Shown piece by piece: positions 46,448 to 52,010 of a DNA stretch of 64,000 nucleotides. Under the pieces are notes generated by a model. That model worked only from the letters and a program-made list of their open reading frames with translations, had not been told where the DNA came from and searched no databases. The stretch comes from Parachlamydiales bacterium (GTDB lineage: Bacteria > Chlamydiota > Chlamydiia > Chlamydiales > SM23-39). Position 1 is the first letter of the stretch. The number at the start of each line of letters is the position of its first letter. The stretch is from the NCBI GenBank assembly GCA_041661445.1, contig JBAZUK010000001.1, positions 258,027 to 322,026 on the forward strand, written 5' to 3'. The position numbers and the translations under genes were made by a program.

Positions 46448-46672
46448 ATGTATAATAAATTATTAATTATTTTTTTATTAACTATTACTATTTGTTTTTC
46501 TGGTGAAATAAAGCGCAGGTCTTTAGTTTTTACAAATAATTTTAAGGAATTTTTAAAAGATATCATAACTAAAAGAATTGATTTTATAGGATTTTCTTCA
46601 TTTGATAATGCTGAATTTATAAGATCAAAAGTATATTCGGAAATTCAATCGAACGTTTATTTGGAATTTTGA
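46448..46672 (+). CDS. small signal-peptide protein adjacent to tpsA (its stop lies 1 nt before the tpsA ATG); hypothetical
   Basis: 'MYNKLLIIFLLTITICFSG' hydrophobic leader. The TGA at 46670-46672 is followed by the tpsA ATG at 46674. Confidence 0.4.
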   Translation: MYNKLLIIFLLTITICFSGEIKRRSLVFTNNFKEFLKDIITKRIDFIGFSSFDNAEFIRSKVYSEIQSNVYLEF

Positions 46673-46673
46673 T

Positions 46674-49600: not shown

Positions 49601-52010
49601 AGATGCAACCTTATTTGGATCAATAACAGGACAAAACAGCGGAACAACAACATGGACGATAAATGGATCCAACCAGGGAAATGTCAGCAACAGTGGTGGG
49701 TTAAATAGTGATTTTTCAAATATCAATACATTGATAGGCGGAAGCGGAAATGACATATTTGACATTCAGACAGCCGGAAGCATAAATAGTTTAACTTTTG
49801 GAAGCGGGATAACAAAGGAGTTAAATTACTCAGGTTATGGCTCTGCGATATCGATTAATTTACAGACGCCAAATGCGACGGGAATAACGACAATAACAGA
49901 TATAGCAAATATCACTGATATTGTCGGAGATACAACCTTATTTGGATCAATAACAGGACAAAACAGCGGAACAACAACATGGACGATAAATGGATCCAAC
50001 CAGGGAAATATCAGCAACAGTGGTGGGTTAAATAGTGATTTTTCAAATATCAATACATTGATAGGCGGAAGCGGAAATGATATATTTGACATTCAGACAG
50101 GTGGAAGCATAAATAGTTTAACTTTTGGAAGCGGAACAACAAAAGAATTAAATTACTCAGGTTATGGCTCTGCGATATCGATTAATTTACAGACACCAGA
50201 TGCAACGGGAATAACGACAATAACAGATATAGCAAATATCACAGATATTGTTGGAGATGCAACCTTATTTGGAACGATAACAGGACAAAATAGCGGAACA
50301 ACAACATGGACGATAAATGGATCCAACCAGGGAAACATCAGCAACAGCGGAGGATTAAATAGTGATTTTTCAAATATCAATACACTGATAGGCGGAAGCG
50401 GGGACGATATTTTTAATGTTGAATCTACAGGAAGTTTAAATAGTATTACTCTTGGAACAGGAACTAATAGTTTAAATATGATGACAGGAGCTGGAACGAT
50501 TAGTACGGTAAATGGAGGTGGCACTGATAGTTATGACTTGATGGGCGGAACTATAACAAACTTAATTGCGGGACCTGGAAATGATAACTTTACGATGGCT
50601 GGAACAAATATAGGAGGTTTATTAGATGGTGGATCTGGAAATAATACATTAATAATTCCTAGTTCAAATAATACCTGGAATATAACTGGAAATAATTCAG
50701 GAAATATTTTGAGCGGAATAGCTGGGAATTTTAATTTTATTCAAATCCAGAATTTAGTTGGCGGAAGCGGGAATGACATATTTGACATTCAAACAACCGG
50801 AAGCATAAATAGTTTAACTTTTGGAAGCGGAACAACAAAAGAATTAAATTACTCAGGTTATGGCTCTGCGATATCGATTAATTTACAGACACCAGATGCG
50901 ACGGGAATAACGACAATAACAGATATAGCAAATATCACAGATATTGTTGGAGATGCAACCTTATTTGGATCGATAACAGGACAAAATAGCGGAACAACAA
51001 CATGGACGATAAATGGATCCAACCAGGGAAACATCAGCAACAGCGGAGGATTAAATAGTGATTTTTCAAATATCAATACACTGATAGGCGGAAGCGGGGA
51101 CGATATTTTTAATGTTGAATCTACAGGAAGTTTAAATAGCATTACCCTTGGAACAGGAACTAATAGTTTAAATATGATGACAGGAGCAGGAACGATTAGT
51201 ACGGTAAATGGAGGTGGTACTGATAGTTATGACCTGATGGGCGGAACAATAACAAACTTAATTGCTGGCCCTGGAAATGATAACTTTACGATGGCTGGAA
51301 CAACTATAGGAGGTTTATTAGATGGGGGATCTGGAAATAATACATTAATAATACCTAGTTCAAATAATACCTGGAATATAACTGGAAATAATTCAGGAAA
51401 TATTTTGAGCGGAATAGCCGGGAATTTTAATTTTATTCAAATTCAGAATTTAGTTGGTGGAATAGGTGATGATACTTTTCAGCTTTCAGGAGGAACTATT
51501 TCTACGATCAATGGCGGATCATCAGGAAATAATACCCTTATAGCGGATAATATAAATAACATTTGGAATATTTTAGATAATAATAAAGGTAATATAAATA
51601 ATTCGATTTCTTTTGAGAATATTCAAAATTTAACAGGAGGAAATCAAAGTGATATTTTTATTTTAACAAATCAAAAAGGAATATCAGGAATTATTGATGG
51701 AGGCAATTCTCCTATACCCATTAATACTTTAGATTATTCAAATTATACAACACCTGTTCGGGTGAATTTAATAGCCGGAACAGCAACAAATATTGGTCAT
51801 ATAATCAATATTCAAGCTTTTATTCTGCCTTCAATTTTTATTAAAAAATATTTTACGATATTGGAAATAAGTTATGACTTAAATAATATTTATCTAGATA
51901 AATATGACTATGTATTTGATAACCATAAAAGATTTTATATCAAGTTAAACACGATATTATCTAACAAACTTTTTTTAAATCACCTTATCAATTCAATGTT
52001 AAAAAAATAG
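46674..52010 (+). CDS. two-partner-secretion exoprotein (TpsA; filamentous haemagglutinin-like) with repeats each carrying one GGxGxDxF motif
   Basis: Signal peptide plus a TPS/haemagglutination-activity domain: 'VVHGSAVFSREDNSLIINQKTDKTIINWNDFSISGNEITRFVQPSKTSTALNRVIGNEISKIYGNLESNGKIYLINQKGILIGPNGKINTNGFVAST'. A Gly/Thr/Ser-rich beta-helix-like body follows, with repeated 'GGSGNDIFD'. Confidence 0.85.
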   Translation: MRALKFLFIIIPCFLSANPTGEDVVHGSAVFSREDNSLIINQKTDKTIINWNDFSISGNEITRFVQPSKTSTALNRVIGNEISKIYGNLESNGKIYLINQKGILIGPNGKINTNGFVASTLDLEDSEFINGKDLHFVSDLQSFIQNFGTIEGLDGEVILIAPFIENQGTIKAKNEKAALLASNDVLLKEEGSNFLVKSDCFIDNKGTIEAVEIELKASNGNIYSLAINQEGIIKARGIEEKKGRVFLIADGKMEVAGKITSKSDNGGVIHILADEIYIKEGATIDSSSDNNGGEILIGGDFQGNNPQIKNAKILQTAKTATIEASAFKKGNGGKIIFWSDDLNLYEGNTFAKGGEISGNGGFVEVSCKKDLEFRGMVSTLASNGKTGSLLLDPSDITISTTSPSSPAFIPPIYDPATSPANLWVTDLNNALVGNDVTIQTTSGTGGSGIISIQNNVGISWSTNHSLTILADKNILFQPGGAPTITHNAASGQLTLTANGTGSGGYHGINLQTLKINSTSSDIISINGTGGTSGSNYGLSFTNTTISAAGDIQITGIGNSISSNSQGIHFVTSSISSTSGSITFNGTSGPGTTTCYGIAIYQSNPGFITNGGVYANGTITINGISHGSGTSGYGSYIYDSIVQSTGGGNISVTGTGSGTTGAGIYIDVSSTNISTAGTMSFTGTGSGTENGIHFLNGTIQGSDNSDIILTGSAPVGNDINLLSSSKIINSTGSISLFNDTYSYGSATNFQTSGALNISPLLSSDSIGVGDSAAGTLTISNATLQLISTNVGSVNVGYPNGTHTSQVGGITTALSKDLTVYGQIISTVGNINIGTKTLNLDIGSASAGSCTINNHAYTIALGTFNINGLTAFDHVLNMSNGGNNTWIITAANSGSISSTSYTGNINFIGMRNLEGGSGNDIFNIQTGGSINSLTFASGTTKELNYSGYGSAISVNLQTPDATGITTITDIANITDIVGDATLFGSITGQNSGTTTWTINGSNQGNVSNSGGLNSDFSNINTLIGGSGNDIFDIQTAGSINSLTFGSGITKELNYSGYGSAISINLQTPNATGITTITDIANITDIVGDTTLFGSITGQNSGTTTWTINGSNQGNISNSGGLNSDFSNINTLIGGSGNDIFDIQTGGSINSLTFGSGTTKELNYSGYGSAISINLQTPDATGITTITDIANITDIVGDATLFGTITGQNSGTTTWTINGSNQGNISNSGGLNSDFSNINTLIGGSGDDIFNVESTGSLNSITLGTGTNSLNMMTGAGTISTVNGGGTDSYDLMGGTITNLIAGPGNDNFTMAGTNIGGLLDGGSGNNTLIIPSSNNTWNITGNNSGNILSGIAGNFNFIQIQNLVGGSGNDIFDIQTTGSINSLTFGSGTTKELNYSGYGSAISINLQTPDATGITTITDIANITDIVGDATLFGSITGQNSGTTTWTINGSNQGNISNSGGLNSDFSNINTLIGGSGDDIFNVESTGSLNSITLGTGTNSLNMMTGAGTISTVNGGGTDSYDLMGGTITNLIAGPGNDNFTMAGTTIGGLLDGGSGNNTLIIPSSNNTWNITGNNSGNILSGIAGNFNFIQIQNLVGGIGDDTFQLSGGTISTINGGSSGNNTLIADNINNIWNILDNNKGNINNSISFENIQNLTGGNQSDIFILTNQKGISGIIDGGNSPIPINTLDYSNYTTPVRVNLIAGTATNIGHIINIQAFILPSIFIKKYFTILEISYDLNNIYLDKYDYVFDNHKRFYIKLNTILSNKLFLNHLINSMLKK
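49410..51455 (+). repeat. near-identical in-frame coding repeats inside tpsA, architecture A-A-A-B-A-B (A = 327 bp, B = 369 bp)
   Basis: Unit starts (GGCGGAAGCGG) at 49410, 49737, 50064, 50391 (B1), 50760 (A4) and 51087 (B2), ending at 51455. 50064-50759 and 50760-51455 form a 696-bp higher-order duplicate that differs at only a few, mostly third-codon, positions. Confidence 0.9.

What the first reader, a model, noticed from the sequence alone, without database searches (positions are those of the whole stretch)
46448..52010. Orphan two-partner-secretion exoprotein (FHA-like) with no TpsB transporter in the neighbourhood
The N-terminus is an unmistakable TPS (haemagglutination-activity) domain after a signal peptide, and the body is a Gly/Ser/Thr/Asn-rich beta-helix-like repeat protein. 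TpsA proteins require a dedicated Omp85-family TpsB, normally encoded adjacent. Here the only neighbours are a 74-aa signal-peptide ORF whose stop lies 1 nt before the tpsA ATG (46448-46672) and a 90-aa membrane ORF downstream.

TPS systems are not part of the canonical chlamydial secretion repertoire (T3SS, T2SS, autotransporter Pmps). That leaves three possibilities:
- The transporter is encoded elsewhere.
- The small upstream ORF participates in a non-canonical export route.
- The gene is a recent, possibly non-functional, acquisition.

Each repeat unit opens with one GGxGxDxF motif ('GGSGNDIFD', 'GGSGDDIFN', 'GGIGDDTFQ'). This matches the RTX calcium-binding nonapeptide but occurs once per 109-123 residues rather than in tandem.
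Basis: partly seen in the sequence, partly recalled or inferred. Interest (0 to 1): 0.7.

Follow-up and report, generated by a model that had tools for sequence, protein, structure and literature searches.

The report
Chlamydial TpsA adhesin without adjacent transporter
This is an intact gene for a large two-partner-secretion (type Vb) surface protein in an environmental chlamydia; it belongs to a gene family common in such bacteria, and the one unusual point, no transporter gene next to it, is most likely because the transporter is encoded elsewhere in the genome, which I could not confirm.

Summary
ORF 46674-52010 encodes a 1778-aa protein with a genuine TPS secretion domain: PF05860 scores 108.9 bits, and an AlphaFold model (pLDDT 93.9) superposes on the EtpA and HMW1 secretion domains at TM 0.82-0.90. 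Seven GGxGxDxF motifs are spaced exactly 109/123 residues apart. A TpsB profile finds nothing in any frame of the 64-kb window.

Most of the interpretation does not hold. TPS systems are common in environmental Chlamydiota: two searches returned about 200 TpsB clusters, many of them labelled chlamydial. The gene is not a recent or decaying acquisition. Its GC3 matches the host genome. The open frame is 1778 codons long in 31%-GC DNA. Independent assemblies are 100% identical where they overlap it. The AT-rich tail is a conserved C-terminal domain. The same organism (NCBI label: Parachlamydiales bacterium) carries at least two paralogues. The 74-aa ORF and the holin-like ORF are absent from all 46 related tpsA loci, so nothing supports a role for them in export.

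The most likely reading is an EtpA/HMW1-class adhesin served in trans by a TpsB encoded elsewhere. This is a new member of a known kind, of modest interest.

The parts
46674..52010 (+). tpsA: 1778-aa two-partner-secretion (type Vb) exoprotein, full length
   Evidence: ORF. Identical to the NCBI and JGI gene call P0501 on the 690,897-bp source contig. The chance of 1778 open codons at this base composition is about 2e-65.
46674..46724 (+). Predicted Sec signal peptide (MRALKFLFIIIPCFLSA | NPTG...)
   Evidence: By inspection of the sequence. The mature N-terminus 'ANP.G..VV.G.A' aligns with 40 relatives. No dedicated signal-peptide predictor was available.
46725..47450 (+). TPS secretion domain (residues 18-259)
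   Evidence: PF05860 108.9 bits, E=5e-31. TIGR01901 71.4 bits. AF2 model of residues 1-400 with pLDDT 93.9. Foldseek: EtpA 8cpk TM 0.86/0.90, HMW1 2odl TM 0.82/0.88. The NPxG motif is NQKG here, a variant shared by the paralogue P0383/P0497 and by 2 of 40 relatives.
47451..49409 (+). Beta-helical shaft, Gly/Ser/Thr-rich (residues about 260-912)
   Evidence: phmmer against the PDB aligns residues 9-689 to full-length EtpA (8vba, E=1.9e-55). GC2 is 0.52, reflecting Gly/Ser/Thr codons.
49410..51455 (+). Repeat array A-A-A-B-A-B: four 109-aa A units (49410, 49737, 50064, 50760) and two 123-aa B units (50391, 51087), each opening with GGSG[ND]DIF
   Evidence: TRF: period 327, 3.1 copies, 94% matches. 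Motif positions. A units are 93-98% and B units 99% identical at protein level. The module recurs in 599 representative proteins. Some relatives hit the Peptidase_M10_C and HemolysinCabind RTX beta-roll models.
51456..51809 (+). Degenerate last repeat unit (GGIGDDTFQ..., GGNQSDIF..., NTLDYSNYTTPVRVNL...)
   Evidence: Alignment of the units. Conserved with P0347, P0371 and P0486.
51810..52007 (+). Conserved C-terminal domain of about 65 aa (…Y.D.YDYV.DNHKRFY.KLN…), not in Pfam
   Evidence: GC is 19%, intergenic-like, yet the sequence is conserved at the extreme C-terminus of P0347, P0383, P0371 and P0486 (E from 1e-14 to 5e-22) and of the paralogues P0497 and P0499. There is no frameshifted continuation in other frames.
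46448..46672 (+). 74-aa ORF with a hydrophobic N-terminus; coding status doubtful; not a conserved TPS component
   Evidence: No Pfam, NCBIfam or PHROG hit. Singleton cluster. Absent from 46 related tpsA loci. GC 20% and GC1 0.22, like intergenic DNA. An ORF this long arises in about 2% of random 615-nt AT-rich stretches. No match to the TpsB profile.
52118..52441 (+). 107-aa (or 89-aa) Gly-rich small membrane protein; borderline match to the 'bacteriophage holin' model; no evidence that it is linked to TPS
   Evidence: NF037947 71.8 bits against a cutoff of 70. No Pfam or PHROG hit. Absent from related tpsA loci.

Best explanation
The gene encodes a functional TpsA-type (type Vb) surface protein or adhesin of an environmental chlamydia. 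NCBI labels the source MAG 'Parachlamydiales bacterium'; its GC is 31%. The proposed route follows. The Sec machinery exports the protein using a short signal peptide. In the periplasm the TPS domain (residues 18-259, EtpA/HMW1 class) docks on the POTRA domains of an Omp85-family TpsB. The TpsB threads the protein through the outer membrane, where it folds into a long beta-helix. The distal half is built from recently amplified RTX-related modules that probably bind calcium, and it ends in a conserved C-terminal domain of about 65 aa. The tpsB gene is not in this 64-kb window. The most likely arrangement is service in trans by a TpsB encoded elsewhere in the genome and shared with the organism's other TpsA paralogues. 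Shown here: domain identity, fold, intactness, repeat anatomy, the presence of paralogues, and the absence of tpsB from the window. Inferred: the Sec step, export through a TpsB, calcium binding, the adhesin role, and the existence of a tpsB elsewhere.
For: TPS domain by profile and by fold: pLDDT 93.9, with EtpA at TM 0.86/0.90 and HMW1 at 0.82/0.88, and every match with E <= 0.001 a TPS secretion domain. PDB sequence search: EtpA E=1.9e-55 over residues 9-689. Intactness: 1778 open codons in 31%-GC DNA; only 3 deviations at columns that are at least 85% conserved across 40 relatives; a conserved C-terminal domain. Independent assemblies are 100% identical where they overlap the gene. Native to the genome: GC3 0.21, RSCU correlation 0.84, comparable to other surface-protein genes in the window. 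The same organism encodes P0497 (1392 aa; TPS domain 69% identical; same C-terminal domain) and P0499 (at least 2546 aa; same modules and tail; on the same 690,897-bp contig). TPS systems are widespread in Chlamydiota, with tpsB usually adjacent to tpsA. Published precedent: some TpsBs secrete more than one TpsA (PMC5422565), and Rhabdochlamydia has a TPS operon (PMC6490308).
Against: No tpsB from this organism was found. Two profile searches listed about 200 TpsB clusters. None sits on the 690,897-bp or 79,283-bp contigs, and none carries this genome's source signature. Five AT-rich candidates all came from other samples, and one named Parachlamydiales came from a genome with 46% GC. This is weak negative evidence, because the word-index prefilter scored only about 180 true homologues per search and the genome itself is absent from the searchable genome collection. 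The Pro of the NPxG motif is replaced by Gln. No experiment bears on secretion or function.
Confidence: 0.72

Rival explanations
1. True orphan. This lineage has lost its tpsB, and the TpsA paralogues are no longer exported across the outer membrane. They would be periplasmic, non-functional, or on the way to decay.
For: No tpsB or remnant in 64 kb. No tpsB attributable to this organism among about 200 clusters. At least one other chlamydia-like MAG (L002/L003) has a lone tpsA with no tpsB within 6-10 kb.
Against: Three large paralogues are kept open in a stop-rich, 31%-GC genome. The TPS domain is conserved, at 69% identity between paralogues. The repeat units are 93-99% identical, which implies recent amplification or gene conversion in an active gene. 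Sequences are 100% identical between two MAGs. The negative search has low sensitivity.
Confidence: 0.12
2. Non-canonical export. The flanking small proteins (the 74-aa signal-peptide ORF or the holin-like membrane protein), or a general Omp85 such as BamA or TamA, replace a dedicated TpsB.
For: The 74-aa ORF's stop lies 1 nt before the tpsA ATG, with no terminator between them. An ORF this long is somewhat unlikely by chance (about 2%). The downstream ORF marginally matches a holin model.
Against: Neither small ORF occurs next to any of 46 related tpsA genes. Neither has a Pfam or PHROG family. The 74-aa ORF has intergenic composition and is a singleton cluster. To my knowledge no TpsA has been shown to be exported without a TpsB (background knowledge; the review PMC5422565 describes TpsB as the dedicated transporter).
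Confidence: 0.05
3. Recent horizontal acquisition of a foreign tpsA without its partner.
For: Overall GC of the gene (34%) is slightly above the window mean (31%). The best database relatives outside this species are only 45% identical.
Against: The GC excess lies at codon position 2 (0.45, reflecting amino-acid content), while GC3 is 0.21, at or below host genes. There is no tRNA, integrase, IS element or flanking repeat. Two paralogues with the same architecture exist in the same organism. The nearest relatives lie in loci whose tpsB belongs to the chlamydial TpsB group.
Confidence: 0.05
4. The repeat array (copy number and order A-A-A-B-A-B) is partly an assembly artefact.
For: Three short-read assemblies break inside the gene at residues 949-1022. 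The units are 93-98% identical at DNA level over 327 nt.
Against: Sister-MAG fragments reproduce residues 1-1177 (through A1 and A2 into A3) and the last 330 residues (from the end of A4 through B2 to the stop) at 100% identity. The units differ at scattered positions, so they are not simple collapsed copies.
Confidence: 0.2

Closest known systems
EtpA (enterotoxigenic E. coli) and HMW1 (Haemophilus influenzae): TPS-secreted beta-helical adhesins
   Same: The TPS secretion domain has the same structural subclass (Foldseek TM 0.86/0.90 and 0.82/0.88). Sequence homology extends through residue 689 of the shaft (8vba, E=1.9e-55). The architecture matches: signal peptide, TPS domain, then a long repetitive beta-helix.
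   Different: EtpA and HMW1 are encoded in operons with their TpsB (EtpB, HMW1B) and a glycosyltransferase (EtpC, HMW1C), from background knowledge. Here there is no tpsB in 64 kb, and no glycosyltransferase turned up among the ORFs scanned (not every small ORF was scanned). The distal passenger (RTX-related modules plus a conserved C-terminal domain) has no counterpart in EtpA or HMW1. Sequence identity is only about 31-33%.
Chlamydial TPS operons (for example the Rhabdochlamydia helvetica huxA/huxB-like operon, PMC6490308, and many MAG loci)
   Same: Same phylum and the same TpsA family. In relatives tpsA and tpsB are adjacent (L001, L004, L013, L014, L096).
   Different: The window's tpsA lacks the adjacent tpsB. 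Its passenger and C-terminal domain are shared only with a few close relatives and paralogues.
tpsA genes served in trans by a shared TpsB (cited in the TPS review: Julio and Cotter 2005; van Ulsen et al. [quoted passage not shown]
   Same: Several TpsA paralogues in one genome, with at least one tpsA unlinked to a tpsB (PMC5422565).
   Different: In those systems the shared TpsB is known and tested. Here it has not been identified.
RTX beta-roll proteins (HemolysinCabind PF00353; serralysin C-terminal domain PF08548)
   Same: GGxGxD half-sites are present. Some proteins that share the repeat module score strongly on PF08548 and PF00353.
   Different: There is one motif per 109-123 residues rather than tandem nonapeptides. 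PF00353 scores below threshold (15.3 against 23 bits). The protein carries a TPS domain rather than depending on a C-terminal T1SS signal.

Membership tests
TpsA (type Vb / two-partner secretion passenger) | N-terminal TPS secretion domain detectable by the family profile | tested here: met
   PF05860 108.9 bits (cutoff 33.5), covering profile positions 4-250 of 252. TIGR01901 71.4 bits (cutoff 29.1).
TpsA (type Vb / two-partner secretion passenger) | TPS-domain fold: a right-handed beta-helix capped at the N-terminus | tested here: met
   AF2 model with pLDDT 93.9 and pTM 0.90. Every Foldseek match with E <= 0.001 is a TPS secretion domain (EtpA, HMW1, HxuA, FHA, HpmA).
TpsA (type Vb / two-partner secretion passenger) | Sec signal peptide preceding the TPS domain | tested here: inconclusive
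   Seen by inspection only: a basic n-region, an 11-residue hydrophobic core, then 'LSA|NP'. The mature start aligns with relatives. No signal-peptide predictor was available.
TpsA (type Vb / two-partner secretion passenger) | Conserved NPxG (NPNG) motif of the TPS domain | tested here: inconclusive
   The window has N-Q-K-G. Pro is present in 35 of 40 relatives and Gln in 2 of 40. The paralogue P0383/P0497 also has NQKG, so this looks like a tolerated lineage variant.
TpsA (type Vb / two-partner secretion passenger) | Cognate Omp85-family TpsB (POTRA_2 + ShlB) encoded adjacent | tested here: not met
   A six-frame search of the 64-kb window with a TpsB profile gave a best E of 1.4. No Omp85, ShlB or POTRA domain in the large ORFs. 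Adjacency is typical of the family but not obligatory (bioRxiv 10.1101/031039; PMC5422565).
TpsA (type Vb / two-partner secretion passenger) | A TpsB present somewhere in the same genome | not testable with these tools
   The source genome is absent from genome contigs. Indirect searches found no attributable tpsB, but their sensitivity is low.
TpsA (type Vb / two-partner secretion passenger) | TpsB-dependent translocation across the outer membrane | not testable with these tools
   Requires experiment.
CdiA / contact-dependent inhibition toxins (a TpsA subclass) | Pre-toxin (VENN) motif, a C-terminal toxin domain and a downstream immunity gene | tested here: not met
   No pre-toxin or toxin family in Pfam scans of the whole protein or its segments, even at E <= 10. 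The C-terminus is a small conserved domain shared by the paralogues, not a polymorphic toxin.
RTX calcium-binding proteins (PF00353) | Tandem GGxGxDxUx nonapeptides reaching the family threshold | tested here: not met
   PF00353 scores 15.3 bits against a cutoff of 23. The motifs are 109-123 residues apart.
Phage holin (NF037947), for the downstream ORF 52118-52441 | Family profile above cutoff, together with a phage or lysis-gene context | tested here: inconclusive
   71.8 bits against a cutoff of 70. No PHROG or Pfam hit and no phage genes seen nearby.

The most novel reading that the evidence does not exclude
This chlamydial lineage keeps a family of at least three large TpsA proteins but has no ShlB/FhaC-type TpsB at all. 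Its TPS domains would then be handled by another Omp85 (BamA or TamA) or by an unknown route. That would be the first TpsB-independent export of TpsA proteins.
Probability: 0.06. Interest if true: 0.75.

Novelty: new member of a known kind. Interest (0 to 1): 0.3.

Why it matters
The finding shows that type Vb secretion substrates are a regular part of the surface repertoire of environmental chlamydiae. This is easy to miss when only the pathogenic Chlamydiaceae are in mind. This organism has a small paralogous family of such proteins, with rapidly amplifying RTX-related modules and a shared, unannotated C-terminal domain. These proteins are plausible host-attachment factors for a protist-associated chlamydia. 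If the genome truly lacked a TpsB it would challenge the rule that TpsA export needs a dedicated partner, but the present evidence does not support that. A practical point for annotators: Pfam's TPS model failed on the full-length protein and hit strongly on the N-terminus alone.

Tried and rejected
(1) The 74-aa ORF as a decayed tpsB (signal peptide plus a C-terminal '...VYLEF' beta-signal). Rejected: no TpsB-profile match in any frame.

(2) The AT-rich last 66 codons of tpsA as read-through junk after a 3' truncation. Rejected: the tail is conserved in four other proteins and in both paralogues, and there is no frameshifted continuation.

(3) Finding the organism's tpsB. The attempts were:
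- a genome-contig scan (source genome absent);
- two TpsB profile searches;
- a metagenome scan with screening by GC and tetranucleotide usage;
- ranking of hits by amino-acid composition;
- contig look-ups of P0150, P0237, P0245, P0160 and P0293;
- a cluster look-up.
All candidates came from other samples or from genomes with a different GC. The result is inconclusive.

(4) L096 as a syntenic relative (tpsB next to a poly(A) polymerase gene). Rejected: that gene is only 39% identical to the window's.

(5) Extending the neighbourhood past the window's right edge. Only a 3.8-kb contig was returned.

(6) A single-sequence AlphaFold model of the repeat block. Mean pLDDT was 45, so it was not used for a fold search.

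(7) Promoter and terminator scans. Counts were no higher than in shuffled sequence.

(8) Mobile-island hallmarks (tRNA, structured RNA, flanking repeats). None found.
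Full report
OBSERVATION. NCBI starts the last one at an internal ATG, giving 89 aa. 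The stop of the 74-aa ORF is separated from the tpsA ATG by a single base. Pfam did not report a TPS domain when the whole 1778-aa protein was scanned. Scanned on their own, the first 300 residues hit PF05860 at E=5e-31 and 108.9 bits (cutoff 33.5), over 247 of 252 profile positions, and TIGR01901 at 71.4 bits. The whole-protein miss is therefore a filter artefact caused by the repetitive passenger. The GGxGxDxF motif occurs exactly seven times, spaced 109, 109, 109, 123, 109 and 123 residues apart.

ANATOMY. Residues 1-17 look like a Sec signal peptide. This rests on inspection, and the mature 'ANP.G..VV.G.A' start aligns with 40 relatives. An AlphaFold model of residues 1-400, built with a 60-sequence alignment, is confident (pLDDT 93.9, pTM 0.90). 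It superposes on the EtpA secretion domain (8cpk, TM 0.86/0.90, rmsd 2.3 Å) and on the HMW1 secretion domain (2odl, TM 0.82/0.88). HxuA, FHA and HpmA follow, and every match with E <= 0.001 is a TPS secretion domain. By sequence, residues 9-689 align to full-length EtpA (8vba, E=1.9e-55). The TPS domain differs from its relatives at only three columns that are at least 85% conserved. One is the Pro of NPxG, which is NQKG here. Two of 40 relatives and the paralogue P0383/P0497 share this variant.

The distal passenger (49410-51455) consists of four 109-aa 'A' units, 93-98% identical to one another, and two 123-aa 'B' units, 99% identical, in the order A-A-A-B-A-B. A degenerate unit follows. Each unit ends '...W.I.G.N.GN......F..I..L' and the next opens with 'GGSG[ND]DIF'. 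This module is not unique. One A+B pair matches 599 representative proteins at E <= 0.001 in a library of 1.84 billion, many of them giant proteins with up to 33 matched stretches. Of the 80 hits that are at least 1000 aa long, 27 start with a TPS domain. Some module-bearing proteins score strongly on the serralysin C-terminal RTX beta-roll model (PF08548, E=4e-28) and on PF00353. The window's own protein stays below the PF00353 threshold (15.3 against 23 bits). The module is an RTX-related building block of large surface proteins.

The last 66 codons (51810-52007) have 19% GC and at first looked like translated intergenic DNA. They are in fact a conserved C-terminal domain. It is found at the extreme C-terminus of P0347, P0383, P0371 and P0486 (E from 1e-14 to 5e-22) and of both paralogues. 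The gene is therefore full-length. A single-sequence model of the repeat block was too poor to use (pLDDT 45).

ORGANISM AND NATIVE STATUS. The window carries a TLC ATP/ADP translocase, LpxB and PFOR, and its GC is 31%. Its proteins sit on a 690,897-bp contig held by NCBI and JGI. A partial protein on a contig of exactly that length is named 'Parachlamydiales bacterium', locus tag WC688_00005. tpsA has a GC3 of 0.21, against 0.24-0.31 for housekeeping genes. Its higher overall GC comes from codon position 2. Its codon-usage correlation with the housekeeping pool (0.84) matches that of other surface-protein genes in the window. The window contains no tRNA and no Rfam match, and no mobile-element repeats flank the locus. 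The term 'island' is not justified.

The same organism encodes two further members of the family.
- P0497 (1392 aa, MFA6119591.1) lies on a 79-kb contig. Its TPS domain is 69% identical to the window's, and it has the same C-terminal domain.
- P0499 (at least 2546 aa, partial) lies at the start of the same 690,897-bp contig. It has 20 GGxGxDxF-like motifs and the same tail.
Both recur at 99.9-100% identity in a sister MAG. That MAG also holds contig-end fragments of the window's TpsA (P0348, residues 1-1177; P0500, the last 330 residues) at 100% identity. Three short-read assemblies break inside the repeat array. The copy number in the middle of the array is therefore the one feature that is not independently confirmed.

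THE TRANSPORTER QUESTION. With all heuristic filters off, a 28-sequence TpsB profile finds nothing (best E=1.4) in any stop-to-stop frame of the window. There is no tpsB within 46 kb upstream or 12 kb downstream, not even a remnant. My idea that the 74-aa ORF was a decayed tpsB fails on the same result.

In relatives, tpsB is normally adjacent to tpsA:
- L001: tpsA-tpsB-tpsA;
- L004, a Simkania species;
- L013;
- L014, a different Parachlamydiales MAG;
- L096;
- 46 of 94 fetched loci carry a related tpsA, most of them retrieved through their tpsB.
One chlamydia-like MAG (L002/L003) also has a lone tpsA.

TpsBs are abundant in environmental Chlamydiota. Source names on the hits include Chlamydiia, Simkaniaceae, Rhabdochlamydiaceae, Parachlamydiales, Anoxychlamydiales and Neptunichlamydia. 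A TPS operon is published for Rhabdochlamydia helvetica (PMC6490308).

I could not identify a tpsB from this organism:
- its genome is not in the searchable genome collection;
- none of the roughly 200 listed TpsB clusters lies on the 690,897-bp or 79,283-bp contigs or has this genome's source pattern;
- the AT-rich candidates all came from other samples;
- a candidate named Parachlamydiales came from a genome with 46% GC.
The index prefilter scored only about 180 true homologues per search, so this is weak negative evidence.

SMALL NEIGHBOURS. The 74-aa ORF has no family hit, is a singleton cluster and has no counterpart in any related tpsA locus. Its composition is intergenic-like: GC 20% and GC1 0.22. 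An ORF this long arises in about 2% of random AT-rich stretches of the same length. It may be a lineage-specific small protein or a chance ORF. Nothing ties it to secretion. The downstream 107-aa Gly-rich membrane protein just passes NCBIfam's 'bacteriophage holin' model (71.8 against 70 bits). It has no Pfam or PHROG match, and it too is absent from related loci.

MECHANISM. The best-supported reading is a functional EtpA/HMW1-class TpsA adhesin. It would be exported by Sec and then translocated by an Omp85-family TpsB encoded elsewhere, probably one shared with its paralogues. The TPS review cites cases where one TpsB secretes more than one TpsA (PMC5422565), and a survey describes the two genes as only 'typically contiguous' (bioRxiv 10.1101/031039). 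The near-identical repeats point to ongoing amplification or gene conversion in a surface-exposed region. Calcium binding at the GGxGxD turns and a role in host attachment are inferences.

The rivals are less likely on present evidence: a true orphan, non-canonical export through the small ORFs or a general Omp85, and recent horizontal acquisition. The first two can be settled only with the complete genome.

VERDICT. This is a new member of a known kind, with two modest novelties: an unannotated conserved C-terminal domain, and a three-member paralogous family in one environmental chlamydia. One question stays open: where is the tpsB?

Noticed in passing
window 51810-52007, and the C-termini of P0347, P0383, P0371, P0486, P0497, P0499: A domain of about 65 aa (…Y.D.YDY[VM]..N.[KE][RK]FY..LN.I…), not in Pfam, ends this TpsA, its two paralogues and a few relatives. 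Its role is unknown; it could be a periplasmic plug, a tether or a maturation signal.
   Followed up: partly
window 52118-52441 (+): A small Gly-rich membrane protein with 2-3 TM segments marginally matches NCBIfam 'bacteriophage holin' (NF037947, 71.8 against 70 bits). It has no PHROG or Pfam hit and no phage context.
   Followed up: partly
window 44768-46057 (+) and 53964-55499 (+): Two signal-peptide proteins with BNR/Asp-box-type repeats flank tpsA and are distant paralogues (26% identity). The 429-aa one has four internal 'QNWS.P.NLS' repeats. A 27%-identical homologue of the 511-aa one sits beside a tpsB in L027.
   Followed up: partly
window 41102-42244 (+): A 380-aa Ser/Pro-rich protein with a WH2 actin-binding motif (PF02205, 24.5 bits against a cutoff of 23.1). 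It is a candidate host-actin effector.
   Followed up: no
window 24291-27821 (+): A 1176-aa protein with He_PIG (putative Ig) domains and LVIVD repeats. It is another large surface-type protein in the same window.
   Followed up: no
window 5008-8520 (+) and 8838-10391 (-): A pyruvate:ferredoxin oxidoreductase gene lies next to an Npt/TLC ATP/ADP translocase gene. This hints at anaerobic-type energy metabolism in this chlamydia.
   Followed up: no
window 27928-29703 (-), 57607-58968 (-), 59095-60054 (-), 60327-61529 (-): Four sizeable ORFs (319-591 aa) have no Pfam family. The 453-aa one looks coiled-coil-rich. None matches the TpsB profile.
   Followed up: partly
L004 (Simkania sp.) and L096: The TPS operon sits in a shared neighbourhood in these two relatives: OPT transporter and DUF1494 on one side, MutL and an M24 peptidase on the other. 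In L004 the tpsA is split into four consecutive ORFs (554, 383, 217 and 462 aa), so it is possibly a pseudogene.
   Followed up: no
window 46674-52010 (method note): Pfam's PF05860 missed the TPS domain when the full-length proteins were scanned: the window's TpsA and P0349. The window's N-terminus scanned alone hit PF05860 strongly, and a local TPS profile detected the domain in P0349. Automated annotation of long repetitive TpsAs can therefore lose the defining domain.
   Followed up: yes
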